Source of the DNA: Trypanosoma brucei
Taxonomy: Eukaryota
Reading direction: 5' to 3'
Assembly: GCA_000002445.1 (NCBI GenBank)
Contig: CM000207.1
Coordinates: forward strand, 2,368,001-2,432,000
Length of the DNA stretch: 64,000 nt
The translations under genes and the position numbers were made by a program. Under the pieces are notes generated by a model. It searched no databases and was not told where the DNA came from. It saw only the letters and a program-made list of their open reading frames with translations. Within the stretch, counting starts at the first letter, position 1; each line of letters starts with the position of its first letter. Shown here in pieces: positions 580-47,363 of this stretch.

Positions 580-582
580 GAG

Positions 583-28156: not shown

Positions 28157-31100
28157 ATGAGTTGTTTAAGAAGCATCTCGCTGTCGGTACCTCCGCACGC
28201 CCTTTCGACGTTCAGCAGAACGGGAATGTTATATGTTATGTATGTCTTGCTTCTTCTCATGCCCTATCCGCTGCAAGTGCACGGCGCTCCAGCAAACATC
28301 AACGTTAAGGTTTTACTTTGTACCTGGAACACGCGTGTACCAAAAATTTTCACCACCGCAGTTAACGCTGGTTTCAATGCGTCAATGGAATCACGCAATT
28401 GGACCATAGCCGACAGGGTGAAGGTGCAGGTAGTTCAATCCAGTACGAGTCACAAAACCCCGGAAGAATTTATCAAAGACGAGTTGAGTAAGGAAACAGA
28501 CAAGAGTGGCATCACGATTGTGTTTGGCCCCGTAGGTGACGACACTACGCTGGATTCTATTTCTGAGTTGCAGAAGCACGAGGTGGTTGCGTTCGGTCCC
28601 ATGACTGGATCTGGAGAGGTTCGGCGGTGGGTTCGTGAGCTCTATTTTCTACGCCCAAGCCCAACAATCGAAACCATGGTGCTCATTCGACATGCATTGG
28701 GTCATCTAGGTGTATTGCGACTGGGTTTCATGTATCTGCAGGGCCATCATTATGGAGAGAAAGAGTATGAGGTGGCATTGCGGGTAATGGAAGAAATGGG
28801 CTACCAACTTTGCGGTGTCTTTGTTGTGTTAAATGTTAACGATAAACCCGCACCCGACAAGGAATTCAACGCAGTGTTTGAGCGTTTTGCAGCTACTAAG
28901 CCACAGGCTGTGCTTTTGTTTGGTGCTCCCAAATCCGACACGGGGAGGTTCCTGAGGAAGTTGGTGGCGGACCGACGCACCTCTGGGGCCTACGTCCTCG
29001 CTCCCTCTGGGGCGCAGGTGTTTCTGGAACTTATGTGGAAACGAGTTCTGCTTGACAGTCAAGTCTCCCCCTTCCCCGGGAAGCTGCTCATTGCTGGCAC
29101 CAACCCACTTGCGAAGAACGAACAGTACGTGGCCATAAAACGCTTTCAAGAGGTGATGCGAGAGTATCTGAAGACTCACACCAGCGAAACGGGCATCACG
29201 GACCCGAACTACTTCTTGAAACATGACACAGATGGTGAAATGATGGTGTACGGCTGGGCTGCTGGCGAGGTGCTGTCGCAGGCGCTAAGCGTCCCTGAGT
29301 GGCTCAAGGACAGGACAACATTCATGGACTCGCTGTATAATCAGCGCCGATACGTTATTGCTGACTTTGTAATTGGCGACTTCGGTGGTGATTGCGAAGG
29401 GGAAGCAGCCAAGCAGGGTGCCGTCTGTTATTGCAACCAAGGTGGAAATGTGGTGTACGTGAGAGAGGTTGAGGATGATTTCAGCATGCAAACGCCGAAA
29501 GATGGCACGGTGGGACTGGCCGCACTGCGCTGCAATGCTGACTCGGTAACGCTACATTCCCCATTGAATGGGCTTGTTATTTTCTTTGGTGACAACACAA
29601 TTGCCGTGAAAGCGACCGCGGCGTGGCTTGTTGGCGCCCTCCGCCACGATACCGGGTCACTAGAGTATTCAGGCCAACTCTTTCTGCACGCATTTGGCAC
29701 CACCACATCTGACTCTGCGAAGGCCCTGAAGGAAGAGAAGAAAAAACGAACTGTCACCGCCGTGTTCGGCATTGTGACGAAAGCGCTTATGAAAATGACC
29801 AACACGCTGTTCATTGACCCAATAACAATTGAACCCCAGTTGAACAAGTTCCGGAGGCATGTGATTCACCTCTCCCCAACGGTGGAGCAGCAAATCTACG
29901 TGCTAACACGCTACCTCTCCAACAACAGTGGTAAAGAGGCAAATGCCATTGTTTGCGCTGCAGAAGCGCATGGTATAATGAAGGTTATCCGAAAGTCCTT
30001 GGAAAAGTGGGGAGGTTCGCTGAATATCTCACTGGTGCGCAGGAGGGGTGCCGCGCTTACCGGCCACCTTCCCACCAGCGGGGCAGTGTTTGTTTTCGGT
30101 ATATCTGCCGCTGACGTTGATGTGATTGAGAGGCACCTCGCTGCGCATAGTGAACTTCGTGTGCTTGTCCTTTTCTCCGAGGTGGCATTGCTTTATGAGA
30201 AGTTTGTCACGGCCTTCAACGGCAGCGCCGCGGCCCCTCGCCTCGTGTTTGCCACCAACCTTCCACACTGGTATGACAATGAAACATCGTCACCAACAAT
30301 CCTGAAGTTTCACGCCACAGTGGAGAGCCGAGAAAAGTGGACGCCAATGACACTAATGGGCTTCGTTACCGGGACGCTGATGAGTCTGGCGCTCTTGCGC
30401 GTGGAACGGGTAAACATGAGCACGCTTGCAAACTTCTTCTTCGTTGAATCCTCCGTAAATGTCGACGACATGCGGTATGGCGTCTTTAGCGACTCGGAGT
30501 GTGGTTCGGGGGAAACCGGATATGGCGATATGTGCCGCACCAACTATGGGGCGACGCGCATTAGTGTGTGGTCCATGTCGCGTGTATTTAATGCTTCAAT
30601 CGAGCTGCTCGCCGAGCCCGTGACACCTTCCTTGAAGTTTTTATTGGAGTGGGACGGGCTTACCAGGGCTCAGCTGGTAGGAATCATTGTCGGTTCCACC
30701 CTCTTCGTGATGCTGCTTGCTGCGCTCGGTGTTTTTATGCACATCACCTTACGTGATGCCCGCGATAATGTGAGTGCACCTATGGACCCGACGGACCCCG
30801 TGACGCTCATCTTCACGGATATTGAAAACAGCACGTCGCAGTGGGCCTCACATCCCAATGTCATGGCCGATGCCGTTGCCGCGCATCACTCTCTGATACG
30901 GACACTAATTGGGAACTATGATTGCTACGAAGTGAAGACCATAGGTGACTCTTTCATGATTGCGAGCAAGAGTGCCACGGCGGCAGTGAGGCTTGCCCGC
31001 GATTTGCAGCGCTGCTTTCTAAACTACCGTTGGGGTACGGACAGCATCGACAACTTCTACCGTGCTGAGGAAAAACAAGTGGCTGAGTTGAACAGCAAGG

Positions 31101-31885
31101 CCGAACCCCCGAGCGCCCAACTGGACCCCGAAGTGTACAGGAAACTGTGGAATGGCCTCCGCATCCGTGCTGGGATCCACACCGGGTTGTGTGATATTCG
31201 GTACGACGAGGTGACGAAAGGATATGACTATTACGGTCAAACGGCAAACATGGCTGCCCGCACGGAGAGCATTGCGAATGGTGGACAAGTGCTTCTGACA
31301 CGTGCAACGTACTTCTCTCTAAGTACAGCGGAACGTGAGCAACTTGATGTGACTGCACTTGGTTCCGTGCCACTGCGGGGTGTACCCGAACCCGTGGAAA
31401 TATATCAACTGGATGCTGTTCCTGGGCGAACCTTTGCGCCGCTGCGTCTAGATCACGAGGCATATGTGGCGGATGAGAGCAGTGATGTTTCCCATACGAC
31501 CTTCAACGACTGCATGTCAATTTCCTCTCAACTAGGAGCAGGTGGGGAAAGTGTTTCCAATGTTTTGCACGCCCTACTCGGCACATTCACAATTGTTCAG
31601 CGGCAGAAGGAATTGACGGCAATATGTGAGCGCTGGCGTGTCCCTCTTCCACCCTGGAAGGAAGCCGTGTGGAATGATGAATATTATCAGGAAGCTATAC
31701 ATCGCCTTGCAGTTAAGGTGGGTCACATTGTCGATGTCGCCGCAGTCGAGCGTGTTGGACGCCCTACGGAATCATCGGACAGCTCCTCCGTCATTTTGAT
31801 TTCTAATCCTGCGGTGGATCAATCCACGGAAGATTTGGAAGGCGATGCTTTTGAATGCGGTTGGGAGGAAAAGGGGAAGCAGTAG
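28157..31885 (+). CDS. GRESAG4: Receptor-type adenylate cyclase (GRESAG4 family): large extracellular domain, single TM, class III cyclase catalytic domain
   Basis: 1242-aa ORF. TM helix 'LVGIIVGSTLFVMLLAALGVFMHI' (~30670-30750). It is followed by the cyclase catalytic core 'LIFTDIENSTSQWASHPNVMADAVAAHHSLIRTLIGNYDCYEVKTIGDSFMIASKS ... GIHTGLCDIRYDEVTKGYDYYGQTANMAARTES' (ends 'IANGGQVLLT'). The true start may be the Met at 28226 ('MLYVMYVLLLLMPYPLQVHG' = signal peptide). Confidence 0.9.
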   Translation: MSCLRSISLSVPPHALSTFSRTGMLYVMYVLLLLMPYPLQVHGAPANINVKVLLCTWNTRVPKIFTTAVNAGFNASMESRNWTIADRVKVQVVQSSTSHKTPEEFIKDELSKETDKSGITIVFGPVGDDTTLDSISELQKHEVVAFGPMTGSGEVRRWVRELYFLRPSPTIETMVLIRHALGHLGVLRLGFMYLQGHHYGEKEYEVALRVMEEMGYQLCGVFVVLNVNDKPAPDKEFNAVFERFAATKPQAVLLFGAPKSDTGRFLRKLVADRRTSGAYVLAPSGAQVFLELMWKRVLLDSQVSPFPGKLLIAGTNPLAKNEQYVAIKRFQEVMREYLKTHTSETGITDPNYFLKHDTDGEMMVYGWAAGEVLSQALSVPEWLKDRTTFMDSLYNQRRYVIADFVIGDFGGDCEGEAAKQGAVCYCNQGGNVVYVREVEDDFSMQTPKDGTVGLAALRCNADSVTLHSPLNGLVIFFGDNTIAVKATAAWLVGALRHDTGSLEYSGQLFLHAFGTTTSDSAKALKEEKKKRTVTAVFGIVTKALMKMTNTLFIDPITIEPQLNKFRRHVIHLSPTVEQQIYVLTRYLSNNSGKEANAIVCAAEAHGIMKVIRKSLEKWGGSLNISLVRRRGAALTGHLPTSGAVFVFGISAADVDVIERHLAAHSELRVLVLFSEVALLYEKFVTAFNGSAAAPRLVFATNLPHWYDNETSSPTILKFHATVESREKWTPMTLMGFVTGTLMSLALLRVERVNMSTLANFFFVESSVNVDDMRYGVFSDSECGSGETGYGDMCRTNYGATRISVWSMSRVFNASIELLAEPVTPSLKFLLEWDGLTRAQLVGIIVGSTLFVMLLAALGVFMHITLRDARDNVSAPMDPTDPVTLIFTDIENSTSQWASHPNVMADAVAAHHSLIRTLIGNYDCYEVKTIGDSFMIASKSATAAVRLARDLQRCFLNYRWGTDSIDNFYRAEEKQVAELNSKAEPPSAQLDPEVYRKLWNGLRIRAGIHTGLCDIRYDEVTKGYDYYGQTANMAARTESIANGGQVLLTRATYFSLSTAEREQLDVTALGSVPLRGVPEPVEIYQLDAVPGRTFAPLRLDHEAYVADESSDVSHTTFNDCMSISSQLGAGGESVSNVLHALLGTFTIVQRQKELTAICERWRVPLPPWKEAVWNDEYYQEAIHRLAVKVGHIVDVAAVERVGRPTESSDSSSVILISNPAVDQSTEDLEGDAFECGWEEKGKQ

Positions 31886-32770: not shown

Positions 32771-32809
<39 letters not shown>
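32771..32809. repeat. Compound (AC)n-(AT)n microsatellite
   Basis: 'acacacacacacacacatatatatatatatatatatata' seen directly. Confidence 0.9.
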
Positions 32810-33248
32810 ATTTATATGGATTTATATGTTCTTATGTTTGTTTATGTGTGTGTTTATATGTATGTTTGTTTGTGCTTGTTTAGATGTTCTGTTTTGTCTT
32901 GTTTTGCCATATAAATTTATTACTATTGTGAACGGTTTGTCAAATAATAAAAACATTAAAAACCTCTCCCCTCCTTTCCCCTTCCTCAAAAAGGGAAAAA
33001 ACAGAAAGAAAAAGGAGTGGTGACGCACCGCTCTCCTTTGGTTTATTATTTGCTTAGATTTGTTTGTTTTCTTCGTTGTTGCTGGCATATAATAATCTAA
33101 GATTTTGTCTCTTCCATCTCTCCTCTTTTTCTCGGCTGTTTGTTTGTGTTTTTGTGTGTTTTTTTCCTTTTATCAAACGTACATGAATATATATATATAT
33201 GTATATTACTTTTGTTTTAGTCCTCTGATGATGTCGGCATTGCTTCCT

Positions 33249-33269
33249 TGTGTGTGTGTGTGTGTGTGT
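33249..33269. repeat. (TG)n microsatellite
   Basis: 'tgtgtgtgtgtgtgtgtgtg' seen directly. Confidence 0.9.
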
Positions 33270-36203
33270 AACTGAAATATATATATGGAGGGTTGTGGCA
33301 TTATTATTATTATTACTGTTTACTATTGTTAATGCTATTGTTAACATCTCAATTATTTATTTCTGTTACTGTTTTTTTTTACTTTTCATTTTTTAGTTAG
33401 TAATGCAAAAAGATGGATTTCATAAAATGCTTTCACCTGCGGCAGCTATCGTTATTATCACAATGAATCGGATGCGTGCACACAGGCCTTCACGCTTATT
33501 ATTTTATTTTATTTTTTAGCGATTGATAACAACAAGTAAAAACACAGATGAAAGCTTCGTTTTGGCAATGGAGAAATTATCATATGTCATTCAATACAAA
33601 ATTATAATAACTATAATATAATATAAATGGTGCTTACGAATCAATCGGATTGTGTTGGGGACGTGCCGGAAGGCACGTCAACGGGTTTCCAACACACGAA
33701 CGATCAGGGAAGTGAACGGCAATTGCAACTTGTTTTTTATTTGTATTTTTATTTTTGCTCTTGAGTCTAATGGTGGTGATGAGCATATTTGTACAGAGTA
33801 ATTGGGGATGTTTTCATGCCGGATGTTATGGTTTATTACATGAAATGCCCTTTTGGTAAATGCGTTCCATCAATTTTCGTCAAACTGACCGCTGTTATTG
33901 TTGTTATTGTTGTTTTTATTCATACACGCGCTAAATGATTGTGGGATCAGTTTATGGTACCGTTCAAAAATGTATATAACACGGCGTTGCATTTATGCAT
34001 GAAGTTAAGTTAAATTAAGTTAGGTTAAGTGAATTGTTCATTCAGTTGTCAAATATGCGAGTTTGAAACAGTGATTAAAGGATGGAACGGTGTGAAGTGC
34101 TCGATATCTCTTCTTTTTTTTAAAAAAAAAGTATATAAAATAAAGCAAGAAAGGATTTGAACGGGGTTTCGGAGGAATTCCTTCGTTAGTAAATTCTTTT
34201 TTTGATGCCTCCAGTGGTTTCAGGAACCGAACATAGATTATAACATCTCAAGTGGAAACTTAAATTTCACACGAAAATATGCCTTTTGAAAGTCGTTTAC
34301 AGCAAATGGCCATTAGCAATGATGTGCGTTGATCCTCCCGCCTAAGAGGTGATAACTTAAACCTTTAAAATGCTGGAAAGAATCTTTGAATAAGTTGAGT
34401 GTATGACATTATGGTTCCTTAACTCTAAATAAAACGCCACATATTGTAATGTTGAGGTACGGGGACTTGTGTGTCCCTCTACGCCCATTGGGGAGGGGAG
34501 AGCCGCGTATTTTAACTGCATTTGCAGCGTTTTATCCCTCAGTGTGTGGGTGTGGCCCATTTAAGGAATGCACAGCTGAAAGATGCTCCTTGAAACTGCT
34601 TTTGCTTTCACCCGTTAAATCCATGAAGCGATGACTTGCAACAAAAACAGCGTTTGTACGTGTATATTAATATGTTTATGTACGTGTGTGAATATGGATA
34701 TAAATATTGATATTGATATTTCCTCCTTGAGGATAATAGTAATTTCTTTCTTCAAGCGTTTGTCCTGCCCCAGTTACAACAAAGTAACATCCACATGTGT
34801 CTTCCTCTGCTGTTGATTTTGACGTGACTGCGAGACGTCCACTCGACAATGCGAAGATGTGGGAGAGCATGGCTGCGTTATACAGGTGTTTGCACTATCA
34901 ATTTGCTCGGCCCCTTATCAAGGGCTTTCGTTTTTACGTGTTAATGAAACCACGAATTAATTCATCAGTACCGTTGACTGCTCTTTCCGCTATGGGCGGC
35001 ATCAGAGATGTAACCGCACCATAATAGTGATGCGCCGACGCTCATAAGGAATGTGGTTTTCCACCTAAGTAGACTGTGAGGTGATGCTCCATTTGTATAT
35101 GCGCCGGTAGGGGCCATTTAGAGGCAAATGATATTCGTGTGTGTACACGTTCGCGTGTGTGCATGAGGGCTCTGGAACTTAAACTGGAGGTGTAAAGCAT
35201 ATACACGCCGACACTTCTATTTTTTTGGGGGGGGGAAGTACCAAATCTGACGGAGGGTTTGTCGTTTTCGCCCGGAGGATGTACCATTTTAAAAACTTAG
35301 GTTAATCAAATCGAAGAACATGTCGGCCGTGTTGATTTCAAGTGGGGTGTTTGTTGTGGGGAACAGCACACAAGTTAAAAGGAGTGCACAGTGCATGAGT
35401 TGCCTTGTGGGGTGGACCGGTGCATACATACGAATATTCAGAGACTCTTTTGGGTCTTTTTTTATTTTTTTAAAAAAAAACTTTGAAGATGCCCCTGCTG
35501 ATTTATAGTTACTCCACATCCGAGCGATGATTGAGTGGGAATGATCGCAGAGAGTCATACGCGTGTCGGCACTCCTGGCTTTTTTTCTTTTTATCAGGTG
35601 AGGTTGGTGCGTGTGTAACGGAAGCAGAAGAAGGTAAAGCGGGACGAATAGGAGAGTCTCAGTGGCAAAAGGATTCGTTACTGGCATGAAACTAATTGCC
35701 AATTCAAAGAGCTTTTCCGCATCTTTCCCAACAAGACGGGAGACGATAAAAGAAACAGGGCTGTGTAAGGGGGGAGGAAAATGGGCGAGCAATAGCCGCT
35801 GCAGTTAAAGAGTATGTGCTGCCTTGTGGGAAAGTTTAATGATTTGCATTCCTCAGCGGTGAGGTTAGGAATGAAAAAAAAAAATTTCCTATGGAAGAAA
35901 TCTCGCGGTTGGGTGCTGGGGAAGCCGAAGCGGCAGTTTGGGTCGCGATCATGCAATCCGCATCACTCGTGAAAAAATGTCTGGTTGACCACGCGTTTTT
36001 GTCGGTAATTGTGGGTCAGTGGCGCGCTATGACCTCTTCTAAAACCAATAAACAAATTGTCAACGAGGCTAGAACTTAACACATGTGGGTAAAGTCCGTT
36101 GTGGTGTAGCCGCTGGTTCGAACAATCCTAAATGCTTTTTTTTTGCAATTTTTTAAGACACTCAACGTTGCTCCTCCCTTTCCCTCACCTTACCTCAGGG
36201 AGT

Positions 36204-37439
36204 ATGAGAACGATCCTCACCACATTAGGGTTATTGTTAGGCGTCACGCAGTACTCTGTGGGTGTCCCTGGAGCTGCCCTCAGCGTTGCAGCCGCTAGAA
36301 TAGTGTGCGAAGCGGCTATGGAACTTGGGAGAGCCGAATCTTATATCTCGATGAAACTGCGCGAAACGCGCGACTTGATCGAGTCCTTGAAAGTTGCTCG
36401 CAGACTCCTTGATGGCAAACTGCAGCGGGACAGACCCATCGGGGAGGAGTGCCTGAACGCAGTTAAGCTTATCGCTCACGCAGATGGTCTGGGTCGCAAA
36501 CTAGAGTCGCAATATTATGAGTTGGAGAGGATAGGGTTCAAAACCGCCTCCAAGTCCCGGCTGGCCTCCGGGAGACTCCACGAATTTATTTTAGTGTTTT
36601 CCCAGTGGCACGACGGCGAGGGCAGATGCATTGCCAACGGGGACGAGGAGGGCGACACACAGGGTGAAGTCACGCTGCGCCGTTGTATGAGCAGTTTGGT
36701 TAACGGAAGCTACGAAGACGGTGGCGGTGGCGTCCATCACAACTTCCCGCGTTATCTGAGGGAATCATTTCAGAATCTTTTTACGCTAGATGAGGATGTA
36801 TCGCTGAACAAGGATAATGGATGTCCTCTGACAAGGTGGAAAGTCATCCACAACGCAACGGCAAATGCCACGGGACGGAGTGGGGCCGCGGAAGATGTTA
36901 GGTGGGCAGGTGGGCTCCTTATTGTCACAGGTAACGGCCCCAGATGGATTTCAGACATTGAAGGGGTCCCGATGCTATCCAAAACGAAAACTAGCCTTGG
37001 AAAATTTGTGTCGATGTCCAGTAAAATTACCAGTGCCTTCAGTAATTTTATGGGAATAGTTTGGGCAGACAACCCGTGGTTGGTGAACAGCAGTGAAGTG
37101 GACAGTCTGATCGTGGGTGTTGACCTCTACATCTTTATGCACCCTTCCAGGGACTTCCAGATCAATGAAAGGGACCTAGACCGCCTGACAAAAACTTATT
37201 GTGGCGAACCCCTCCCCGCTCACGTGCGGCTCAGCGACAAAGTTGCTGACGGAAGGGACGGAAATAGTGACGTCTCGCCTCGCGGCCCTGTAGTCCCCGC
37301 AAACATATCTGAAACCAATACGATTTTCGGTAGCGATGATGACGATGAAGATTACAATGGTTTAACGGAGGTTAAGGCTGGGACCGAGCTTCTGTCGTTG
37401 TTGTTTCCCCTCGTGGCAATAAACCTTTTTCTTGTCTGA
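36204..37439 (+). CDS. GPI-anchored surface protein of the ESAG6/7-PAG (transferrin-receptor-like) lineage, 412 aa from the second Met
   Basis: Signal peptide 'MRTILTTLGLLLGVTQYSVG'. Motif 'ASGRLHEFILVFSQWHDGEGRCI' closely resembles ESAG6 'AAGRLEEWIFVFAQAAGRSSQFCI' (from memory). C-terminal GPI-type tail 'GTELLSLLFPLVAINLFLV'. The ORF-track start at 36132 lies inside the upstream polypyrimidine tract (36135-36198), so 36204 is the more likely start. Confidence 0.7.
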   Translation: MRTILTTLGLLLGVTQYSVGVPGAALSVAAARIVCEAAMELGRAESYISMKLRETRDLIESLKVARRLLDGKLQRDRPIGEECLNAVKLIAHADGLGRKLESQYYELERIGFKTASKSRLASGRLHEFILVFSQWHDGEGRCIANGDEEGDTQGEVTLRRCMSSLVNGSYEDGGGGVHHNFPRYLRESFQNLFTLDEDVSLNKDNGCPLTRWKVIHNATANATGRSGAAEDVRWAGGLLIVTGNGPRWISDIEGVPMLSKTKTSLGKFVSMSSKITSAFSNFMGIVWADNPWLVNSSEVDSLIVGVDLYIFMHPSRDFQINERDLDRLTKTYCGEPLPAHVRLSDKVADGRDGNSDVSPRGPVVPANISETNTIFGSDDDDEDYNGLTEVKAGTELLSLLFPLVAINLFLV

Positions 37440-38904
37440 TGTGAATGTAAAAGAAGTAACTGGCTCGTATATACATTGATCTCTTGTATTGGGTAGAGCT
37501 CGCCATTTTGCAGCCTATGCGTGCCACAACATCTGTCACCGTGTGTAACAAGTGAAGTTCCAGTTTACCTTGGTCATTGCATTTAACTTTCCTAAACCTC
37601 CATCCACATCGTGCACTCCGCCAAACTGTAGCGCGGGAAGTTGTTGAAAAATGTGAATCTCATTGCATCCTTTTGCAATCCGACTTTCTTGGTCCACGCA
37701 AGCATGGGTCAGAAAGCATTTTAGCCAACCTCGGAAGTCACAACCAAGGAACTCATAAAAAGAGCTCCTTCCTCCCTGGTACAGTGCGCTGTCAAAATAA
37801 AAGTCCTGTCCCCCTTTCCCTGACTGTTTTCTCCGCCGGTTAGGGCGGCTGCAGCGTTGGTAGAACCAGGTGGTATTTCGCGCTAAATCCTTATTCCAAA
37901 TGACGGTAGAACGCATCAAATGAGAGCAAACACAGAAAATTCGGTTATGATACTATTGTGATGCAGTCATTTCGGAAAGACGTGCAAAGGCGGTAGTGTT
38001 CAGCAGCGCAGCATTGTCGTCAAGGGAAACGGCGGGTAATGGGATGAGACAGTGGAGAACCCAGCACGCTGAAAGCTGAAGCACATTACAGACTCGTAGT
38101 GTTCAAGGAACGAACTGCACCTGCGTTAAGGTGCATGTCAACTTCAAAAATGCGAGGAATCAGCGCTGCTACTGAGAGGATTGTTGATTGCCACAGGAAG
38201 TGGCCCACCAACATGGTGCAGTGCGGTGCAATGAGGAGATCACTTGCTCACGCGACTCACAGAGGGAACTGAAGAGTATGCTACGGCCAAGTTAGAGCCA
38301 AGTGTACTGGACAGGATTATGAGGTGGGAACAGATAGGAACTAACAAGAAATCAAAACTACGTTTGTAAGATACACAAAGAAGAGGCGCACTGAAGATTA
38401 CTTCATGCCGCACTATTTTTGTGGCGGCCAAACTTAAAAGTGGAGAAGGGTAAAGGAAGTCAACGAGTGCCCGAAGCTTTTGTAATTATTTGGTTGAAGG
38501 AAGTTGCTCCAAAATGACGTGCGGAATGGCCGCGCAGCTAAGGCGGGAGAGAAAATTGTAGTAATTTAAAGCAAGGGTGAAGGAGCTTACCTGCTTATTT
38601 GCTTAAACGGCTGCACAGCAACCGTAGGGCAAAGAAATGGAATTCAGAAATACGGTAGAGGAAGATATGTGTACACGTGCAGCCGGTGTGGTTCCTTTGG
38701 GGTTCCGTTAGGTATTAAATGGGGGTAAAGCCATTGTCAATGACAGTGAGCACGAGGCCGAAGATAACGGCTGGTTCATCCGCTTACACAAGCAAATTTT
38801 TCAACAAACAGATACTTTTTTAACTTTCACTAACTGTAATTATATGCCTCTCAGTTAAACATAAGGCTAATAAATTCCAAAAGCGTTTCGATCGTAACGA
38901 TAGC

Positions 38905-41900
38905 GACATATGTCGCTAAGACACACATGAAAACATGCACAGTGGTCGTACCAAAGTATCCTCACCAGCGTAGCAACACAAAAAGTTAATGGAAATTTCC
39001 TATGGAAGAGAAACCATGCGATATTCCGGTAAGGCACTTGAAACCCTTCAGTAGCAGGCGATATCCACGGATCGTTAACAACATGGAATGAGAATCACAA
39101 CACACAAGGGGGAAAGGAATCGCAATTACTCTTTGAATATCAATACTTTTAGAGGGTCGAACTATCATCTGTCATCTGTCCCACGTGGCACTCTCACACA
39201 CCACATCAAGGGTGATGGGAGAAATTTTTTGTGGGAGCATACGATGGCCGATGAGTTGGTGAGAGATCAATTATGTTTGCAACACTGCCGTTTTGGTTAT
39301 TTTCTACTTGAGCACCTTTGATACAGTGGGCCATATCAGGGTTGTGCAATAAATGCGTAAAGTTAGTGGAGAAAAGTCTAACACCCTCTGCACCGCATCC
39401 TTACCAACAGAAGGAATGGCAGCAGCTCACTTAGATAAATCACTTCCCCCTGACAAGAATAGTTTAACAGAGGGCAGGTGAAAGGCACAGTGTTCAGCCT
39501 TTTACTGTTAAAAGCTGCAGTTACCTCCCTTCATTTTCTTACCAAACATCCCAAGACACAGCTTAAAGCATGGATTCTTTGTGGAAGACTTGACAGTGAG
39601 GAGAGGGAACGTGGATGGCTTTTCAGAAGGAACTGAATGTTATAGCTGTGATAGGAATCCGTATTTACTTCAGATAACTCGTCACGAAGAAAACAGGGTG
39701 TGAGGTGTTGGGAGGACATTTGGGGTCACGGTAATGCGGAAACGCGGCGACACCCACTCCATGTTGAATTTATATCCACACCGTTAATGTACTGGCAAAT
39801 CGGATATCCGCAGCGCCTTCTTACCCATAGAGTGCAAAGTGAAGAATACAAACTGACATTGACACTCTTCATTACTTCCAACATGTATTACACACGCGTT
39901 ACTCGGATGTAAGATATCGTGTGATTACAGGAGTTATTTCAAATATCAAGAGAGCTATGGAGAGTAATGGTTTCCTGATCTTTTTTCACCCATTCTGCCA
40001 TTTCATATCATCTCTCCCATGAAATTTCGATGATATGGGGAAACAATGTGTGGTGGAGCGTATATGTAAAAAGAAGACCTGAGGGCACTTTCACCCTGGG
40101 CACCTTGTCACACGAAATAGGAGCTATGGAAGACTTTCTCACTGAGGGTTGAGCCCCTTCCACACTATTTCATGGGATTCGTGCGAAGGGAAAACAGAAA
40201 AATTATGTTTTAGCAGTAGTCATGAAGAGTTTAATTTTGTGTGAAGTAATAACCCTGAGAACACTGAAACACTTCCATGAGATGTGTGGAAGAATGTCAA
40301 AATGTCAAGAAAGCTCAAAATACTTCACTTTTTGGTTCTTTTTTGATTTTGCTAGAGGACAAGGGTGAAACATGCAAGGCACTATGTACTGGGTTGTATT
40401 TTTAGTGGCGGTACTACAGGGTATTCATTTAGTGTCGGGCCAGGAGGAGATATTGAATGAACAAGAGTTTGAAGCGTTGTGTCGAATGATAAATTGGGCA
40501 GAAAGGGGACTGAAGCACATAAAAGTAACAAAACGAGTTACCCAAGAAGCTCTGAAAATAGGCGTAAGATATCTTGAAGTGGCCGGTGAGGAAAATGCTG
40601 CTGAACTCGCTGAGGCACAGGACTATTCTTGTACGAAGAGAATGGAGGATCGGAAAAGGAATTGTGGGCTGTACAAAACATTTTGGGAAGAGGCGCAGAG
40701 AGTATTGAACAAAGGGGTTGACAGCGGAGAAAGACCTGAGCGAAAAAAAAACGGCTTGCGGGAGCACAGTGCAGAGATTAGAAAAAAGGCAATGGAAGTG
40801 GCAGATATATATCACGAAATCGAAGCGAAGAGTCCATCTGGACAAGTAGAAAAGATTGAAGAACAGCTCAATAAAGCTCTTTATGGAAGGACACACACTG
40901 CTGAAGAGATAAGGGAAAGAGAAGAGCGAAGCAGGGTGTGCGGGAAAACATTACCAAATCCACCTAATAGAGAAGACCAATCACTAGCCGTGGATTTGCT
41001 GTGCTTGTGTGCAATGCACGGCTCTTGGAACGGCAGGGAGATATGCTGCGCAGACTGCACCACAGGAAGAAATAGCGAGGAGTGGAATCCAGAATCAAAC
41101 AGCGCGCACCGCTGGGAATTTCTGAAACAGAAGTGTGCGGGAGTCATTCCAAGCTATGGTAGCACGGGGGAAAGACTGCGTGATGCAAAACAAAATTTTA
41201 TGGATGCAGTAACGAAAATAACTACAAGGAGGGGGGAGCAGTTGTCCAAACTAGGAGAAAAGCAAAACAACAACGTAAAAGACTGCGGCGCGGACACAAG
41301 CAAGAGCCAAGGAATATGCATGCTGTACGGAGCAGTTGACGGAGTGAACCTGCCCTGGATGAAAACTTTGGAAAGTGTCGAAGACAGGATAGGACTTCTG
41401 ATGCAAGAGAGCCAAGACAAGACATCAAAACTTGAGAGAATTAAAGAGCTAAGTCAAGAGATAGAAAGCTTAATCAAAGGTGATACGGGGCGAGGAAGAC
41501 AACAGGGAAGACAGAAACGGAGTGTGGATACCGAGAACAGTGTCCCAGAAACCCCAGCTGACCCGAGCGATCCAACACAGTCAACCACAGATACCAATAG
41601 AAAAAAGCAAGGTGAAAGGAAACCGATATCAACAGGTAACGGTGCATCCAAAAGCTACGGTGGAGATGAGGTTGATTCTTACGATTCCAAATGCGATGGA
41701 GAAAACTCGGCATGCTCAGATTCACCAGCAAAGCCAACAGTAAAAAGCAGCAAAAGTGCTATAAATTGTCCACTGGGATTAATTTTGCTTTTGGTATAAA
41801 CGAAAAGTTCCAACACAAGGTAAGGAAAAAGAGATGGAATTGGTTGTGTTTGCGGCATCTCAATATTCCACACGGAGTGGGATGGTGTGCATTTCAAAAC

Positions 41901-44900
41901 TTGTACAGGAGACACGTGATGCGTCAGAGCAATCGTGCTCAGCAGCACAGCCATCCAGGAAGCCTAAACGAAAGAGGGAAATGTTGGGAGGGTTTATGCT
42001 TCGTGATACTAGTAATGCGTGTTGTTGAGAACCTTTTCATATTAAAAGGAACACTACAAAAACTGAAAGCATTTACGAATGATGGGAAAGCTCATAGAGG
42101 CTATAAACGGCTAAAATGTACCGGCCGTACTGAGTGGGTGGTGTGAAAATAAAAAGGGATATGTTGTAGAGAGTGTCAATACAGGAAGGCTACACAAATG
42201 GAAAGGAATAATAAATACAGAAAAAGGGACGTCATAATATTTTACTGAGCTCCATGCAGGAAGTGCAAGGGATATTTCCAATGGGGAAGTTGGGAAGGTT
42301 AAAAAAAAAGGCGAAAACATATGAGTGATAATGTAAATATAGTCTGATGGAAGGAAGTGTTGCTTTGGAAAAAGACAGACAAATAACTAAAAGAGGATTG
42401 ACTGGAGAAAATGATGCCAGGCGAAACACATAAAAAAATGGGTTCGGGAAGCATGGATATTTCGAACTTGGAACATAAAGACAAAAGAGCAGGAAAAGTT
42501 GTGGGAAATGGCATGTTATATATTTGCATCGTTATAGCAAAAAAAACTGTTTGGTGTGTCGAATGAGTGAAGGAACTGAGGCACTCAAGACCGCTGAATA
42601 AGAAAATGGAGAAGGAAAGCCACGGAAAGTAATGAGGGGATATCTTGAAAGCCGCGCACACAGACACGTACACTTGATAGCGGGGTGTGAAAAAGCAAGG
42701 AGTGGAACAAAAGCCTTCATCGCTATGATGGTTAAGAAATACGACACCACCACAATGCGCTGTATAATTCAAAGCAGACGTATTATTAAAGGGATCGGTA
42801 TTAGTGGAAATACCTGTGGTATTAACCTTTGCGGTGCTTGAAGTGATGGCATGAAAAAGATTAGAGATACCCTCTTCTGTGTTGTGTCGGATACATGGAA
42901 AAAGAAAGTGTGTGCTTGGCCTAAGGATGTAATGTGCTAAACCATAAGGCAGTAATAAAATACCTCAAAGCAATTCTATCGCCAAAAGGAATCGATGATG
43001 CTGTGGTTCAGACGAGAAATATCACACTACAGAATCCGACATTGCATGGGACGCAACTATGTGTCAACGCGGCGGTGATATAAGCTATCAAAGCAAAAAA
43101 TGATGCAATTATGGGGATTTATCATGCAGCAGCGTTGTCTACTATGGAAAATGCAGTAACCACTGAAAAGGAGGAAACATGCTTCAAGGAGCAAAAAGTA
43201 GCAGTGATTGCTGTAACAACAAGATTGTGGTTGTAAATAAAAAAAAAGAAAAGGAAGCGAAACTACGACCCAAGGATATTTAGAGTAGTATCGAAACTGC
43301 CTAAACATCACTAATGAATGCATATTTACCAAATGCGAATATATATGTATATGTGAATATATACGTACATCAATATTCTACAAAAATAGTGCTTTGCAGC
43401 GTGTGAGACTTTCAAAACATTTTTTGTGGAACACTTAAGCATAATTGTTGTTAATGGAAAATTGATCTATGGATACCTTCTTTTTGCTACATGTATTTTG
43501 AATTTGTTTGAGAGGAAAATGGTAACATCTCTGAGGTAAACTCTGGGACAATATAAAAGTGCTGGAGAAAATTTCTTGGTTTGACAGTAGCAATATCATG
43601 AACTAAAGAAGTGATTAAAAGATCTGTAACACGGGAGTATGTGCTTTTGCCATTGTACGATTTTCTTGATATATGCATTGAAGTGATTGATTGAATAGGG
43701 GTGCAAGTCTCATGAAACATGCTCTTCATTCAACCAAGGCTTTTTAGGAATATGCAGCAAAAGTCGAAAAATGACTGACTTGACAACCAAAATGGCGTCC
43801 CTATTCTATTAGTGAAAATTCGAATGAAACAGCACATAATGGAACTACATGAAAATTCAAAGGAAATGTGATATCAAATTCCTAACCCGCTGTATCAAAT
43901 TTCTCACACACCTTTCATAAAAGTATTTTTACATACATGTTTGAATTGAAAACACTCGACAAAATAATTTATGTGATCTGCGTATGAAATGTGTGATGAA
44001 TTCTGCCCAATCGTGCTAATCTCTCTATTATTGTTAAACCTCACCTTACCATTTGTTTCAGTAAAGGCAAGAAAGCAATATTAAATGATGAAATACTGTT
44101 AAACGGTGAAGTTACAAAGGAATATCTTTTCCGCAACAGAGAGTAACTATCTGAGAGGAGTTTAATGAACCGTGTACAATGATAGTGTCAGCACACTAAG
44201 TCTTGGAACAGCATAAACAGACTAGGATAACCAAAGGGGAAGAAGTGACACCTGGTGCTATGCAGTAACTAGCTTCAGAGGCAAAAAAAAGGCTGCTCAA
44301 TCCTATGGAAGCAATGTAACCTCACAGCCGTAGCAGTAGCGTGAATAAGAAAGGAAATGTGAACTTAGAAAAAACATATTGAACTCAAAGTGAAAAAGCA
44401 GAAGCAGTCAACCGCATAGAGGTATCAAAGGCATAACGTAGTTTGTTGGAAGGGGCGCCGAGCAAAATCAAGTTTTAGGCAGGTGATCCGGTATGGATGT
44501 ATCACACTGCACATGGATGCCACAAACCAAGAGACTTTGAATAGATGAAAGGAAAGATGAGAGACTTCGCGTCTATCAGGCGTGCTTGAGTTAGGGGCTG
44601 TAGTGGAAAGCAAACACAAACTGCTTACCCGAAGAGGGACAGTAACATGAACAATCCGAAATGGGTTTCAAACTATCTGGCACAATATCATTTTGACTGG
44701 GTCTGAGAGAGAGAGCTCTTTGGCCAGAGACAAACACGCGCGTTACTATAACCTTACAAATGACTCGAATACAGATATCAAATGCAATATTCTAAACGAA
44801 TAAAAACAAGGCTCAAGAGGCAACAATGCGGAAGATTCCGTTGAGTTACTTTACGTTAGCGTGAGGGTAGGAAAGAAAATGAAGAGATTTTGTGAATCTG

Positions 44901-47363
44901 GAAAAGGAAATGTGAGAACGCAACCCTACAACAGCTTTTAAAATATCCCATGGACTAAAGCGTTGAATAGAATTGACGGGAAAATGAGCAACCTGACTGT
45001 TAGCAAAGACAAGGGAAACTATGGCAAAGCTAACCTAGTTAAGCTGTGGCATCGCCAATTTAATTAAAACAAGCCAGAGTGAAGAGAGGATGCCATTCAG
45101 AGTTATAAGAAAGTAAAGCCATGAAAGTATAATTGGCACGATTACTTTGTTAAATTACGATACAAATACGAGTAAAACACAAATAATAATTATGGGAGCA
45201 AGCCAGGAGTTACCTGTGAAGGTGAAATTACTGCTGATTATAATAGTGCGGGTGTCTCTCGAATGAAACGCGAAAACCGTCGGCACAGTACAGCGTCCAC
45301 GCACTCAAACTGTGAAAGAGGATGTCAGTGGGTCAACGGTGAGATTGTGAGGCCACATCGCAAGCCAGTTATCTAAAACAGTGTGGGATTTGTTCAAACA
45401 TTACCCAGATTATATTTGTTTCTGTTTGTAAACGTGTGATTAGGCACTAAACTTCAATTCTAGCAGTGTTTGAATCTGTAGTACAATTAATATTTACCCC
45501 TTTCGTTTGAAAGTTAGTATAACTCTACGGTTTTGTCGGTCATTCAACGTAGTCTTGAAAGGGCCCAAAAGCACAAATACGTGACTTCTTAACATTTCAT
45601 CAGAGATGCACTACACCACACGGGTGAGCACATTGCCGTAACTAGGGGGTAGGTTTACTTTTTTGACACAGCTTCAAAAAGGTAGAACCTCGAATATGAT
45701 GCAAGTGGACCTCAGGTGGGGACTATCTGGCGCAAGAAAACGCTAGCAGAACTCGGGTCTCTCCCTCGCTTGAGGTAAAAGTTGTGTTGCATTGCGGGCT
45801 TCGGTGACGATTGCTCACTCCTTATTCAGATTTTTGAGGTTACCAAGCATGTAAAGCTAAGGGAGTGCAGTTCTTTCTCTGTAGTTGTTGGGTGAGCGGT
45901 TATGTAAATGTGTATATCTTCACATTTTTATATTTAAATGTTGGCTTTTACGAATTTTTTTGTTTGCAATGGGTTGAAATTACACGGCAACGACGTGGTT
46001 CAAGGTGTGAATTTTACTGATTTAGTTTTTGACGCCATCTCAGTTAGTGAAAGGATACGATGGCGATCCGCAAAGGGGAGGAAAAGGGCTTCCAAATTGC
46101 AGAGACGTACCAAAAATTGACAGGAATTTAGGTTGCTCAAAGGAAAATAATTATAGATATTAAGCGGCAAGAAACTTTGTGCTGGAGAGGCTTCTGGGGT
46201 TGGATTCTGTTTGACAGAAACTGCACGCCATGGCTGATAAGTGAGCTGCTTCCCATGAGGCATAGACGGGTGAATAATGCTTCCCTCAGTTTTTTGAGTG
46301 GGAATTCGTCGCTGTAAAAGATTCACCTGGTGTGAAAAGAATTGATAGAGCGTATCCGAACATTTTAATTACTCCAATCTAAGGAACAAGAAGTGTGAAA
46401 CATCTGGTGAGGGTAGAACGTCTTGTTACCTTAGCTCCCTTGGGCGGAACACAGGTGTAGGGTCGTGTAAAAAAGGGACGAGAGGTGTGTCTTCCTATTG
46501 AAGTTGGAGGTCTCTAGCTGAAAAAAAAAAGCCACTGACTCTAGTGACACGAATAGTCCAGACAATATCCCTAGGCGCGCGCACCTCACAGGCCGGCAGA
46601 ATAGTAAAACTCAATTTTCACTACAATCCAGTTACCAAACTGTACATTTAATCTTACTCTTCCCACTGTAAAAACATATAAGTGTTATTCAACTCGGGTG
46701 CTGAATCCATACCAAAGCACATAGAGGTAACAAATAAAAGTCGCTATTTCTGAAAACTAATTCACACTTGCCTGCGAATGCACACCTTTCCTTTAACATT
46801 CGTAAGACAGTATAGGGTCCTACTGAAGTCCTGGTTTACACAAGATATTATATACGATTGGTCACGCAGTCACCTCTGCTGCTTTCCGGACAATAAAGTG
46901 ACTAACTGCGAAGCATGGCTCTCAATGGGAGAGATTTTCTAAGCGGGTTAAAGAGCCATACTATGGAGACTCATACATGTGTATATTATTGTTGGGGTGA
47001 TTCACCAGCCCTTTTTACAAAATGTATAATATCCTCTTGCATTTGGCAGTGAAGCATAAAAGCGTGCTGCTGTTGTACTGAATATATCCCCTTTCCTTTG
47101 CGGTACCCTCCTTTCTCTTTATAAATAATGAGCCTGGTGTGAATTAGAAGAGTGTGCGAATTTATCCAAAATAGAGTGGGTGTAATGGGAAGACACATCA
47201 TGTGGAGGACACTCCGTATGCTAGCAGCTGATGCTTACGGTGGAAGTGGAAGAAGCATTCAGTATCCGAGGCGTAGTGCCACCTTGCCATAAATTGGCTG
47301 TCGGAGTTGACAAGAGATCACTGAAGTGGCAACCCTCCAAGGGCCACTTAGTGAAGATGTGCG
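38905..47363 (+). repeat. Macro-repeat unit 1 (~8.46 kb) of a tandem triplication
   Basis: Sequence from 'tgtcgctaagacacacatgaaaacatgcacagtggtcgt' (38911) recurs at 47370 and 55824. ORF-track ORFs recur at offsets of +8459 and +8453. Sequence upstream of 38905 has no counterpart, so the array starts here. Confidence 0.9.
40372..41799 (+). CDS. Secreted Cys-containing GPI-type surface glycoprotein (475 aa), VSG/ESAG-like fold suspected; paralogue A
   Basis: Signal peptide 'MQGTMYWVVFLVAVLQGIHLVSG'. Early Cys in 'EFEALCRMINWAE'. 'AVDLLCLCAMHGSW' Cys cluster. Dibasic 'RQKRS'. Pro/Thr/Ser-rich stalk 'VPETPADPSDPTQSTT'. Cys-rich C-terminal module 'CDGENSACSDSP'. Hydrophobic tail 'INCPLGLILLLV'. 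Upstream polyY+AG 'cttcactttttggttcttttttgattttgctag'. Confidence 0.8.
   Translation: MQGTMYWVVFLVAVLQGIHLVSGQEEILNEQEFEALCRMINWAERGLKHIKVTKRVTQEALKIGVRYLEVAGEENAAELAEAQDYSCTKRMEDRKRNCGLYKTFWEEAQRVLNKGVDSGERPERKKNGLREHSAEIRKKAMEVADIYHEIEAKSPSGQVEKIEEQLNKALYGRTHTAEEIREREERSRVCGKTLPNPPNREDQSLAVDLLCLCAMHGSWNGREICCADCTTGRNSEEWNPESNSAHRWEFLKQKCAGVIPSYGSTGERLRDAKQNFMDAVTKITTRRGEQLSKLGEKQNNNVKDCGADTSKSQGICMLYGAVDGVNLPWMKTLESVEDRIGLLMQESQDKTSKLERIKELSQEIESLIKGDTGRGRQQGRQKRSVDTENSVPETPADPSDPTQSTTDTNRKKQGERKPISTGNGASKSYGGDEVDSYDSKCDGENSACSDSPAKPTVKSSKSAINCPLGLILLLV

What the first reader, a model, noticed from the sequence alone, without database searches (positions are those of the whole stretch)
36204..37439. 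Chromosome-internal transferrin-receptor-like (ESAG6/7-PAG lineage) gene between the cyclase and the macro-repeats
The motif 'GRLHEFILVFSQWHDGEGRCI', together with a signal peptide and GPI tail, places this protein in the ESAG6/7-PAG-like group. Those are normally telomeric expression-site or procyclin-locus genes. A solitary internal copy, flanked upstream by a GRESAG4 cyclase (after a 4.2-kb spacer) and downstream by a VSG-like tandem family, makes this neighbourhood look like an 'expression-site-like' assemblage at an internal locus. The ORF-track start at 36132 is almost certainly wrong: the first 24 codons are a polypyrimidine tract.
Basis: partly seen in the sequence, partly recalled or inferred. 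Interest (0 to 1): 0.55.

Follow-up and report, generated by a model that had tools for sequence, protein, structure and literature searches.

The report
Divergent transferrin-receptor-like surface gene, Tb927.9.15680
This is an already-annotated Trypanosoma brucei gene (Tb927.9.15680, labelled "transferrin receptor subunit") for a GPI-anchored surface protein that is only a distant cousin of the real transferrin receptor, with a counterpart in T. congolense, so the family call is right but the database label overstates what is known.

Summary
The ORF is real: 36204-37439 (+), 411 aa, with the quoted motif at residues 123-143. Published qPCR primers for Tb927.9.15680 ("transferrin receptor subunit"; elsewhere "putative genomic copy of ESAG6") match inside it exactly, so the gene and its TfR-like label are already public. 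The window is the chromosome-9 BARP locus: a BARP array, the cyclase ACP6, this gene, then three B-type VSG-like genes. An exhaustive search of 1.84 billion proteins found only a full-length T. congolense homolog (38% identity) and a T. congolense "PAG-like" TfR-like protein. No a-VSG passed. Profile comparison gives 97% probability against ESAG6/7 plus PAG-like and 12% against a-VSGs. ESAG6 is the top structural hit. However, identity to ESAG6/7 is only 22-23%, and trees place the gene outside the ESAG6/7 plus PAG-like group (about 90% bootstrap). No partner gene lies in the 64 kb, and there are no telomere or 70-bp repeats. Its 3'UTR is reported as not ESAG6-like, and its mRNA barely responds to iron chelation. 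Verdict: a conserved, single-copy, early-branching TfR-like lineage, not a VSG, not T. brucei-specific and not a demonstrated transferrin receptor. The "expression-site-like assemblage" idea is unsupported. The 36204 start is supported only indirectly.

The parts
36204..37439 (+). CDS including stop: 411-aa precursor, the counterpart of Tb927.9.15680. A GPI-anchored, TfR-like protein of the A-type VSG superfamily that lacks a VSG C-terminal domain.
   Evidence: ORF and translation. Pfam PF00913. Published Tb927.9.15680 primers match 37109-37128(+) and 37292-37311(-) exactly, once each. The identical protein is in databases at 411 aa.
36204..36263 (+). Predicted signal peptide, about residues 1-20 (MRTILTTLGLLLGVTQYSVG). 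The cleavage site is inferred.
   Evidence: Hydropathy peak at residues 7-11. The N-terminus aligns with that of the T. congolense homolog. No signal-peptide predictor was available.
36285..36602 (+). Long antiparallel helical hairpin (residues 28-76 and 81-133), with the Cys83 turn shared with ESAG6/7 and PAG-like proteins.
   Evidence: AF2 model with pLDDT 70-84 over these helices. Alignment shows C83 in the target clade, ESAG6/7 and PAG-like proteins but not in a-VSGs. This is the only region with PDB sequence hits, to ESAG7/6.
36570..36632 (+).
   Evidence: Aligned to ESAG6/7 AAGRLEEWIFVFAQ, PAG-like AAGRLDEFMSVFKQ and a-VSG KGRIDEYLNLL. The core is common to the superfamily. The 'VF' tail is seen only in the T. 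brucei target, ESAG6/7 and PAG-like proteins; the T. congolense homolog has 'AF'.
36969..37070 (+). Third long helix (residues 256-289), which completes the three-helix bundle.
37209..37388 (+). Low-complexity, acidic, probably disordered C-terminal linker (residues 336-395), including the conserved DYN at 383-385. There is no Cys-rich VSG C-terminal domain.
   Evidence: pLDDT below 35. Sequence and Cys positions. Conservation with T. congolense. No Pfam C-terminal-domain hit.
37389..37436 (+). C-terminal hydrophobic tail (LLSLLFPLVAINLFLV), the presumed GPI-addition signal. The omega site is undetermined (candidates N385/G386 or A392/G393).
   Evidence: Hydropathy above 2 over residues 399-407. 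The T. congolense homolog has an equivalent tail. No GPI predictor was run.
36132..36203 (+). In-frame upstream extension used by the T. b. gambiense annotation (434 aa). It is probably the 5' flank or UTR, with two polypyrimidine tracts (36135-36154, 36168-36196) followed by AG at 36156 and 36197, which are candidate trans-splice acceptors.
   Evidence: tracts and AG positions. (the only difference from T. b. gambiense here is a 3-nt T-run indel). (three of four database entries and the T. congolense homolog start at the downstream Met). Spliced-leader mapping was not available.
28157..31885 (+). Context: upstream receptor-type adenylate cyclase (GRESAG4 family), inferred to be ACP6, Tb927.9.15660.
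   Evidence: Pfam domains. [quoted passage not shown] Identification rests on gene order and numbering relative to Tb927.9.15680.
40372..58708 (+). Context: three B-type VSG-domain genes (40372-41799, 48831-50255, 57284-58708) in repeat units of about 8.45 kb. They belong to a different VSG class from the target gene.
   Evidence: Pfam PF13206 at E=1e-83 to 1e-87. The paralogs are 63-70% identical to each other. T. b. gambiense has one copy, followed by an RHS gene.

Best explanation
The gene is the counterpart of Tb927.9.15680. It is a single-copy, strain-invariant gene encoding a secreted, N-glycosylated, GPI-anchored surface protein, built on the trypanosome three-helix-bundle (A-type VSG N-terminal domain) scaffold and lacking a VSG C-terminal domain. 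In evolutionary terms it is an early-branching, separate lineage of the transferrin-receptor-like branch (ESAG6/7 plus PAG/Fam14-15). It has a full-length homolog, probably an ortholog, in T. congolense, so it predates the split of those two species. It lies in a long same-strand gene run on chromosome 9, after the BARP array and the ACP6 cyclase, so it is most likely transcribed polycistronically by Pol II and regulated post-transcriptionally. The mRNA is low in abundance and higher in bloodstream (stumpy) forms than in early midgut forms. The inferred mechanism, which has not been shown, is that it acts as an invariant, low-abundance surface or flagellar-pocket protein that binds a ligand through its membrane-distal loops. 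It would do so as a monomer or homodimer, because it has no ESAG7-type partner. It is not the canonical iron-regulated ESAG6/7 transferrin receptor. Translation most likely starts at 36204.
Confidence: 0.68

Rival explanations
1. It is a genuine chromosomal copy of ESAG6, a functional transferrin-receptor subunit contributing to iron uptake, as the database product name implies.
For: It is annotated 'transferrin receptor subunit' or 'putative genomic copy of ESAG6'. ESAG6/7 are the only PDB sequence hits and the top structural hits. It has a GPI-type tail like ESAG6. The transcript is enriched in the bloodstream stage.
Against: Identity to ESAG6/7 is only 22-23% and it branches outside ESAG6/7 plus PAG-like. 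No ESAG7-like GPI-minus partner lies nearby. The C-terminal half shows no detectable similarity. The 3'UTR that mediates the iron response is not conserved. The deferoxamine response is weak at 1.4-fold. The cell-surface phylome paper lists only Tb927.7.3250/3260 and the PAGs as non-ES ESAG6/7 homologs.
Confidence: 0.08
2. It is a PAG-type gene: an insect-stage or differentiation-associated, dispensable TfR-like protein that happens to sit next to other insect-stage genes (BARP, ACP6).
For: The highest non-orthologous scores are to T. congolense 'PAG-like' Fam14 proteins. It lies downstream of the epimastigote BARP genes and the procyclic-enriched ACP6 on the same strand.
Against: Trees place it outside PAG-like plus ESAG6/7. 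It is not next to a procyclin locus, because it is on chromosome 9 at the BARP locus. The transcript is higher in stumpy forms than in day-3 midgut forms and low overall in fly stages. T. brucei PAG1/2/4/5 themselves could not be compared.
Confidence: 0.15
3. It is an atypical or degenerate A-type VSG (a 'VSG-related' archive gene), as the NCBI VSGnome entries call it.
Against: It has no VSG C-terminal domain. It is 99% conserved between subspecies, with an intact ORF. It has a 38%-identical full-length homolog in T. congolense, a species reported to have no a-VSG. No a-VSG passed E<=1e-3 in 1.84e9 proteins. hhalign probability against a-VSGs is 12%. It lacks the a-VSG insertion of about 45 residues.
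Confidence: 0.04
4. The cyclase, the TfR-like gene and the VSG-like genes together form a relic or cryptic expression-site-like transcription unit.
For: The gene families in this order superficially recall ESAG4, ESAG6 and VSG. In T. b. gambiense the locus lies about 50 kb from the end of the chromosome-9 core, next to an RHS gene. T. congolense TfR-like genes also sit among VSG_B, ISG and cyclase genes.
Against: The window has no telomere repeats and no 70-bp-type arrays. There is no ESAG7 partner. The cyclase is ACP6, not ESAG4. The VSG-like genes are B-type and diverged from each other. Everything lies on one strand downstream of a 14-gene BARP array, which points to an ordinary Pol II polycistron. 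No promoter test was possible.
Confidence: 0.05

Closest known systems
T. brucei transferrin receptor subunits ESAG6/ESAG7 (PDB 6SOY/6SOZ; Fam15)
   Same: Both have the A-type VSG-derived three-helix-bundle fold without a VSG C-terminal domain. Shared sequence features are the Cys in the inter-helix turn, AxGRLxE[FW]IxxF, [ND]GCxL[TVM]R and W-[AG]-G-G. The target has a GPI-type tail like ESAG6 and a bloodstream-enriched transcript. ESAG6/7 are the best sequence and structure hits in the PDB.
   Different: Identity is 22-23% and detectable only over the N-terminal 150-290 residues. The target has no GPI-minus partner and is not in a telomeric expression site. Its 3'UTR is not conserved and its iron response is weak. 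It has a long acidic C-terminal linker. Its ligand is unknown.
PAG / 'Transferrin receptor-like, PAG-like' proteins (Fam14), represented here by T. congolense CCD13731.1
   Same: These are the nearest relatives outside the gene's own two-member clade (E=1.8e-5 against the whole library; 38-55 bits with the clade profile). They are similar in length, are alignable to about residue 290, and have no demonstrated receptor function.
   Different: Identity is 18-20%. PAG-like proteins group with ESAG6/7 to the exclusion of this gene. The gene is not at a procyclin locus. T. brucei PAG1/2/4/5 were not available for direct comparison.
T. congolense IL3000 CCD14569.1 ('unnamed protein product')
   Same: It is a full-length homolog at 38% identity. 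All six Cys, the DYN plus hydrophobic tail, and long conserved blocks such as WAGGLL, SDIE.VP.L and FSNF.G..W.D.P are shared. A receptor-type cyclase lies nearby in both species.
   Different: Its neighbours are ISG65/75-family genes, not BARP or VSG_B genes, and the cyclase is on the opposite strand. Synteny, and therefore strict orthology, is unproven.
Canonical A-type VSGs (MITat1.1, MITat1.2, mVSG531, ILTat1.24) and SRA
   Same: They share the Pfam domain family and overall fold, the core G-x-[IL]-x-E-[FY] motif at the end of helix B, and several Cys positions.
   Different: The target has no C-terminal domain, is not variable, and lacks the insertion of about 45 residues. Profile similarity is not significant. 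It has a homolog in T. congolense, which is reported to lack a-VSG.

Membership tests
ESAG6/ESAG7 transferrin receptor (Fam15) | A-type VSG-derived N-terminal-domain fold without a VSG C-terminal domain | tested here: met
ESAG6/ESAG7 transferrin receptor (Fam15) | Phylogenetic position within the ESAG6/7 clade | tested here: not met
   Identity is 22-23%. ESAG6/7 group with PAG-like proteins and exclude this gene at 89-90% bootstrap. The sampling was limited to 9 sequences.
ESAG6/ESAG7 transferrin receptor (Fam15) | Tandem GPI-plus/GPI-minus gene pair encoding a heterodimer | tested here: not met
   tblastn of the target, ESAG6/7 and PAG-like proteins finds no second copy in 64 kb. The T. b. 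gambiense locus has none within 10 kb on either side.
ESAG6/ESAG7 transferrin receptor (Fam15) | Location just downstream of the promoter of a telomeric bloodstream expression site | tested here: not met
   The gene is at the chromosome-9 BARP locus. There are no telomere or 70-bp-type repeats, and it lies on the same strand downstream of the BARP array and ACP6.
ESAG6/ESAG7 transferrin receptor (Fam15) | Binds host transferrin | not testable with these tools
   This needs recombinant protein. The head loops are modelled poorly and are not alignable with confidence.
ESAG6/ESAG7 transferrin receptor (Fam15) | Conserved ESAG6 3'UTR and up-regulation on iron starvation | not tested
   From the literature only: the 3'UTR is 38.9-42.2% identical to ES copies, and deferoxamine gives a 1.4-fold change against about 3-fold reported for ESAG6.
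PAG / PAG-like (Fam14) | Closest sequence match is to PAG-type proteins | tested here: inconclusive
   The best non-orthologous hit is T. congolense 'PAG-like', but the tree puts the gene outside PAG-like plus ESAG6/7. T. brucei PAG1/2/4/5 could not be retrieved.
PAG / PAG-like (Fam14) | In T. brucei, adjacency to a procyclin locus | tested here: not met
   The neighbours are BARP, ACP6 and VSG_B genes on chromosome 9.
TfR-like branch (Fam14+15 in the broad sense) of the A-type VSG superfamily | Significantly closer to ESAG6/7 and PAG-like proteins than to a-VSGs | tested here: met
   hhalign gives 97.2% against 11.8%. hmmsearch gives 23-55 bits against 5-9 bits. The reciprocal PDB profile searches agree.
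TfR-like branch (Fam14+15 in the broad sense) of the A-type VSG superfamily | Present in T. brucei and T. congolense | tested here: met
   A T. congolense homolog was found and no hit came from any other species, apart from a Branchiostoma repeat-protein artefact, at E<=1e-3. Absence from T. vivax holds only at the sensitivity of single-sequence phmmer.
Canonical A-type VSG | N-terminal A-type domain plus a Cys-rich C-terminal domain and GPI signal | tested here: not met
   The N-terminal domain and a GPI-like tail are present, but there is no C-terminal domain.
Canonical A-type VSG | Hypervariable, strain-specific repertoire member | tested here: not met
   Identity is 99% across T. b. brucei, T. 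b. gambiense and T. equiperdum entries.

The most novel reading that the evidence does not exclude
Tb927.9.15680 and T. congolense CCD14569.1 define a third, ancient lineage of TfR-like receptors that predates the split of T. brucei and T. congolense. On this reading it is an invariant, single-subunit, GPI-anchored bloodstream-stage receptor for a host macromolecule other than transferrin, overlooked because it is mislabelled in turn as VSG, 'T. brucei-specific' and 'transferrin receptor subunit'.
Probability: 0.25. Interest if true: 0.6.

Novelty: already known. Interest (0 to 1): 0.27.

Why it matters
The gene and its TfR-like label are already in the reference annotation, so the finding itself is not new. 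What this analysis adds is a correction. Three public names contradict each other: VSG, 'T. brucei spp.-specific protein' and 'transferrin receptor subunit'. None of them fits. The gene is an invariant, conserved, early-branching relative of the transferrin receptor with a T. congolense counterpart. This has a practical consequence, because at least one study measured this gene by qPCR as 'the transferrin receptor' and interpreted its weak iron response on that basis. It may also matter biologically. Invariant receptors built on the VSG-type helical scaffold (TfR, HpHbR, FHR, ISG65) are the main known host-ligand receptors of African trypanosomes and are candidate drug-delivery or vaccine targets, so an uncharacterised conserved member is a reasonable candidate for ligand screening.

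Tried and rejected
1. The word-indexed homolog searches returned almost nothing beyond self and three close T. congolense PAG-like paralogs, so a broad named set (T. brucei PAGs, Fam15, T. vivax Fam23) could not be assembled.
2. AF2 with a two-sequence alignment failed (pLDDT 33) and was not used.
3. A profile of the C-terminal half found no PDB hit at E<=10, so there is no independent support for full-length similarity to ESAG6/7.
5. Synteny test with the T. congolense contig: the 223-aa neighbour has no match to the window's 346-aa ORF. The neighbouring cyclase is 48% identical to ACP6, a level that cannot separate ortholog from paralog. The test is inconclusive.
6. Supplement searches for stage-resolved expression found the gene in only one of five papers tried (found; not found).
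7. The old-style ID could not be found, and no 'GRESAG6' or 'ESAG6-like' literature exists for this gene.
8. The Branchiostoma hit (P0006, 13 short stretches in a repeat protein) was rejected as a repeat artefact.
9. An Rfam scan of the window found nothing.
10. I looked for an RHS gene at the end of the window, as in T. b. gambiense, and found none within 58709-64000.
Full report
**1. Observation**

An ORF runs from 36132 to 37439 on the + strand. The internal ATG at 36204 gives a 411-aa protein that contains the quoted motif GRLHEFILVFSQWHDGEGRCI at residues 123-143. The protein passes Pfam's curated threshold for the A-type VSG N-terminal domain, PF00913 (29.2 bits against a 22.1 cutoff, E=7e-7). 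It has:
- an N-terminal hydrophobic segment;
- a 16-residue hydrophobic C-terminal tail preceded by an acidic linker;
- six cysteines;
- five N-glycosylation sequons.

Upstream of these lies an array of GARP-family (BARP) genes at a period of about 1.8 kb.

**2. Identity**

The window is Trypanosoma brucei DNA. The exact protein is in public databases as 'variant surface glycoprotein' (ARB50711.1). Entries 99% identical to it are named 'VSG 1125.1322', 'Trypanosome VSG (A-type)' in T. equiperdum, and 'T. brucei spp.-specific protein' in T. b. gambiense DAL972. The DAL972 entry is 434 aa because it uses the upstream ATG.

A paper lists RT-qPCR primers for 'Tb927.9.15680, transferrin receptor subunit'. 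Both primers match the window exactly and uniquely, at 37109-37128(+) and 37292-37311(-). The gene is therefore the counterpart of Tb927.9.15680. [quoted passage not shown]

The BARP genes are Tb927.9.15520-15640. ACP6, a procyclic-enriched flagellar cyclase, is Tb927.9.15660. By gene order this is the cyclase upstream of the target.

In T. b. gambiense the same gene order lies at 2.108 Mb of the 2.16-Mb chromosome-9 record. One VSG_B gene and then an RHS gene follow it. The locus is therefore non-telomeric but close to the distal end of the chromosome core.

**3. Family placement**

An exhaustive phmmer search of 1.84 billion representative proteins found only four hits at E<=1e-3:

| Hit | Description | Result |
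|---|---|---|
| P0001 | self cluster | E=9e-272 |
| P0005 | T. congolense IL3000 CCD14569.1, 'unnamed protein product', 406 aa | 38% identity over the full length, E=1e-70 |
| P0006 | Branchiostoma repeat protein | artefact (13 short stretches) |
| P0007 | T. congolense 'Transferrin receptor-like, PAG-like', CCD13731.1 | 26% identity, E=1.8e-5 |

No a-VSG passed. The library presumably holds many a-VSGs, though I did not verify that.

In the PDB, only ESAG7 and ESAG6 (6SOY) are hit. The E-values are 0.07 and 0.16 with the single sequence and 2e-4 and 6e-4 with a profile of the T. brucei and T. congolense pair. In the reverse direction, a profile of three a-VSGs reaches ILTat1.24 (4e-6) and SRA (3e-5) but not ESAG6/7.

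The true chain sequences of ESAG6/7 (N-terminal ~237 residues) and of three a-VSGs were recovered from PDB alignment output. Local hmmsearch with these gave the following scores for the target-clade profile:

| Comparison set | Full length | N-terminal region only |
|---|---|---|
| T. congolense PAG-like | 55 and 44 bits | 42 and 38 bits |
| ESAG7/ESAG6 fragments | 23.5 and 23.0 bits | 25 and 24 bits |
| a-VSGs | 4.6-6.3 bits | 8-9 bits |

hhalign gave these results:
- target clade against TfR/PAG-like: 97.2% probability, E=4e-11, over 274 columns;
- target clade against a-VSG: 11.8% probability, over only the 56 columns around the motif;
- TfR/PAG-like against a-VSG: 39% probability.

The alignment shows features shared with ESAG6/7 and PAG-like proteins but absent from a-VSGs:
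- a Cys in the inter-helix turn (C83);
- a Trp in W-[AG]-G-G;
- absence of an a-VSG insertion of about 45 residues.

The 'VF' tail of the motif is found in the T. brucei protein, ESAG6/7 and PAG-like proteins (the T. congolense homolog has 'AF'), and [ND]GCxL[TVM]R is shared with ESAG6/7. On its own, therefore, the motif marks the superfamily and not the TfR branch.

**4. It is not inside the ESAG6/7 or PAG clades**

Over the shared ~210 columns, identity is 22-23% to ESAG6/7, 18-20% to PAG-like and 15-17% to a-VSGs. By comparison, ESAG6/7 and PAG-like are 27-29% identical to each other.

Two NJ analyses, using different alignments and distance corrections, agree:
- the T. brucei and T. congolense pair groups at 99.8-100% bootstrap;
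- ESAG6/7 plus PAG-like group at 89-90% and exclude the pair;
- the a-VSGs separate from everything else at 59% in one analysis and 100% in the other.

If the root lies on the a-VSG branch, as in the published TfR-family tree, the pair is the earliest-branching TfR-like lineage. The caveats are nine sequences, saturated distances, NJ only, and no T. brucei PAGs or T. congolense Fam15 sequences.

The cell-surface phylome paper fits this picture. It lists only Tb927.7.3250/3260 and PAG1/2/4/5 as non-ES ESAG6/7 homologs in T. brucei, and the T. congolense homolog was left unnamed while Fam14 members were labelled 'PAG-like'.

**5. Structure**

AF2 with two sequences failed (pLDDT 33). With six sequences it gave pTM 0.54. 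Three long helices (28-76, 81-133, 256-289) were modelled at pLDDT 70-84, while the head loops and residues 336-411 were poor.

- Foldseek against the PDB ranks ESAG6 first (E=7.4e-5, the only hit at E<=1e-3). ESAG7 follows, then GARP, ILTat1.24, MISP, HpHbR, mVSG531, ISG65 and FHR.

The fold is the trypanosome three-helix-bundle surface-protein fold. Fold alone does not separate TfR-like proteins from VSGs, so the sequence profiles carry that argument. A profile of the C-terminal half finds nothing in the PDB.

**6.

- *Partner gene.* tblastn with the target, its homolog, PAG-like proteins, ESAG6/7 and a-VSGs finds no second A-type or TfR-like copy, or remnant of one, in the 64 kb. None is present in the T. 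b. gambiense locus.
- *Start codon.* The stretch 36132-36203 is 69% pyrimidine. It has two polypyrimidine tracts (36135-36154 and 36168-36196), each followed by an AG (36156 and 36197), and either AG would exclude the upstream ATG from the mature mRNA. The T. congolense protein starts at the position equivalent to 36204, and three of four database entries use it. The only difference from T. b. gambiense in this stretch is a 3-nt T-run indel, which is in frame and so only weakly informative. This supports 36204 but is indirect, because spliced-leader mapping could not be done.
- *'Expression-site-like assemblage'.* There are no telomere repeats, no 70-bp-type arrays and no ESAG7 partner. The cyclase is ACP6, not ESAG4. 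The VSG-like genes are B-type and 63-70% identical to each other. All called genes lie on one strand behind a 14-gene BARP array. This looks like an ordinary Pol II polycistron rich in surface-protein genes near the core boundary. T. congolense TfR-like genes sit in similar mixed neighbourhoods of VSG_B, ISG and cyclase genes. The arrangement therefore resembles a generic subtelomere-proximal surface-gene neighbourhood more than a cryptic expression site. That last step is an inference.

**7. Expression and constraint**

Between the window and T. b. gambiense the CDS differs at 10 codons, 4 synonymous and 6 non-synonymous, giving pN/pS of about 0.46 and 99.2% nucleotide identity. The ORF is intact in all entries, so the gene is invariant and not an antigenically variable VSG.

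In a published RNA-seq comparison, Tb927.9.15680 is at 26.8 RPM in stumpy bloodstream forms and 7.1 RPM in day-3 midgut forms (log2FC -1.7, padj 0.0086). It is detectable by qPCR in cultured bloodstream forms. There it rose only 1.4-fold with deferoxamine, where the authors expected about 3-fold as reported for ESAG6. Its 3'UTR is 39-42% identical to the ES ESAG6 3'UTRs that mediate the iron response.

**8. Interpretation**

*Shown:*
- the gene's identity;
- its place in the A-type superfamily;
- its closer affinity to TfR/PAG-like proteins than to a-VSGs;
- its separate lineage with a T. congolense homolog;
- that it is solitary and non-telomeric;
- that it is invariant and transcribed.

*Inferred:*
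- signal-peptide cleavage and GPI anchoring;
- surface or flagellar-pocket location;
- ligand binding through the membrane-distal loops;
- a monomeric or homodimeric state;
- Pol II polycistronic transcription with post-transcriptional, bloodstream-biased regulation.

The canonical transferrin-receptor role is unlikely. Identity to ESAG6/7 is low, there is no partner subunit, and the 3'UTR and iron response differ from those of ESAG6. That role has not, however, been excluded experimentally.

**9. Novelty and score**

The gene and the TfR-like reading are already in the reference annotation and in two papers, so the finding as stated is already known. The modest added value has three parts:
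- the three public names are mutually inconsistent and each is inaccurate;
- the gene is not T. brucei-specific;
- it appears to be an early-branching, conserved TfR-like lineage that nobody seems to have characterised.

Interest is low to moderate (0.27).

Noticed in passing
window 36204-37439: The same gene carries three conflicting public names: 'variant surface glycoprotein' (VSGnome and T. equiperdum entries), 'T. brucei spp.-specific protein' (DAL972) and 'transferrin receptor subunit' or 'putative genomic copy of ESAG6' (927 annotation and papers). One study used it as the qPCR proxy for 'the transferrin receptor' and interpreted its weak iron response on that basis.
   Followed up: yes
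window 40372-41799, 48831-50255, 57284-58708: Three B-type VSG-domain paralogs sit in repeat units of about 8.45 kb. They are only 63-70% identical overall but share a nearly invariant C-terminal region of about 100 residues (from about residue 370) and an identical N-terminal signal region. The variation is concentrated in the N-terminal domain. T. b. gambiense DAL972 shows a single copy followed by an RHS gene.
   Followed up: partly
window 25447-26487: A 346-aa ORF lies between the BARP array and the cyclase. It has no significant Pfam match, only sub-threshold Clusterin, Spo12 and DUF948 hits. A 346-aa gene is also called at the same position in T. b. gambiense.
   Followed up: no
window 1590-24269: The BARP (GARP-family) array has 13 ORFs of at least 200 aa at a period of about 1.8 kb. 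Sizes range from 254 to 326 aa, and the copy at 14382-15362 is notably longer at 326 aa. This compares with the 13-14 published BARP genes, Tb927.9.15520-15640 or Tb09.244.2400-2530.
   Followed up: no
L002 (T. congolense CAEQ01001566.1) 1-17889: The T. congolense homolog is flanked by two ISG65/75-family genes upstream on the minus strand and a receptor-type adenylate cyclase downstream on the minus strand. That cyclase is 48% identical to the C-terminal half of the window's cyclase. A cyclase is therefore adjacent in both species, but orthology or synteny could not be decided.
   Followed up: partly
window 36135-36144 vs L001 (T. b. gambiense): A 3-nt length polymorphism in the T-run just after the upstream ATG is the only difference from T. 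b. gambiense in the 220 nt around the start region.
   Followed up: yes
window 31886-36131 and 37440-40371: The long intergenic spacers (4.2 kb and 2.9 kb) flanking the gene contain no Rfam family and no notable tandem repeats apart from two short pyrimidine/GT-rich 23-nt repeats at 32544-32589 and 32862-32904. They probably include long UTRs.
   Followed up: partly
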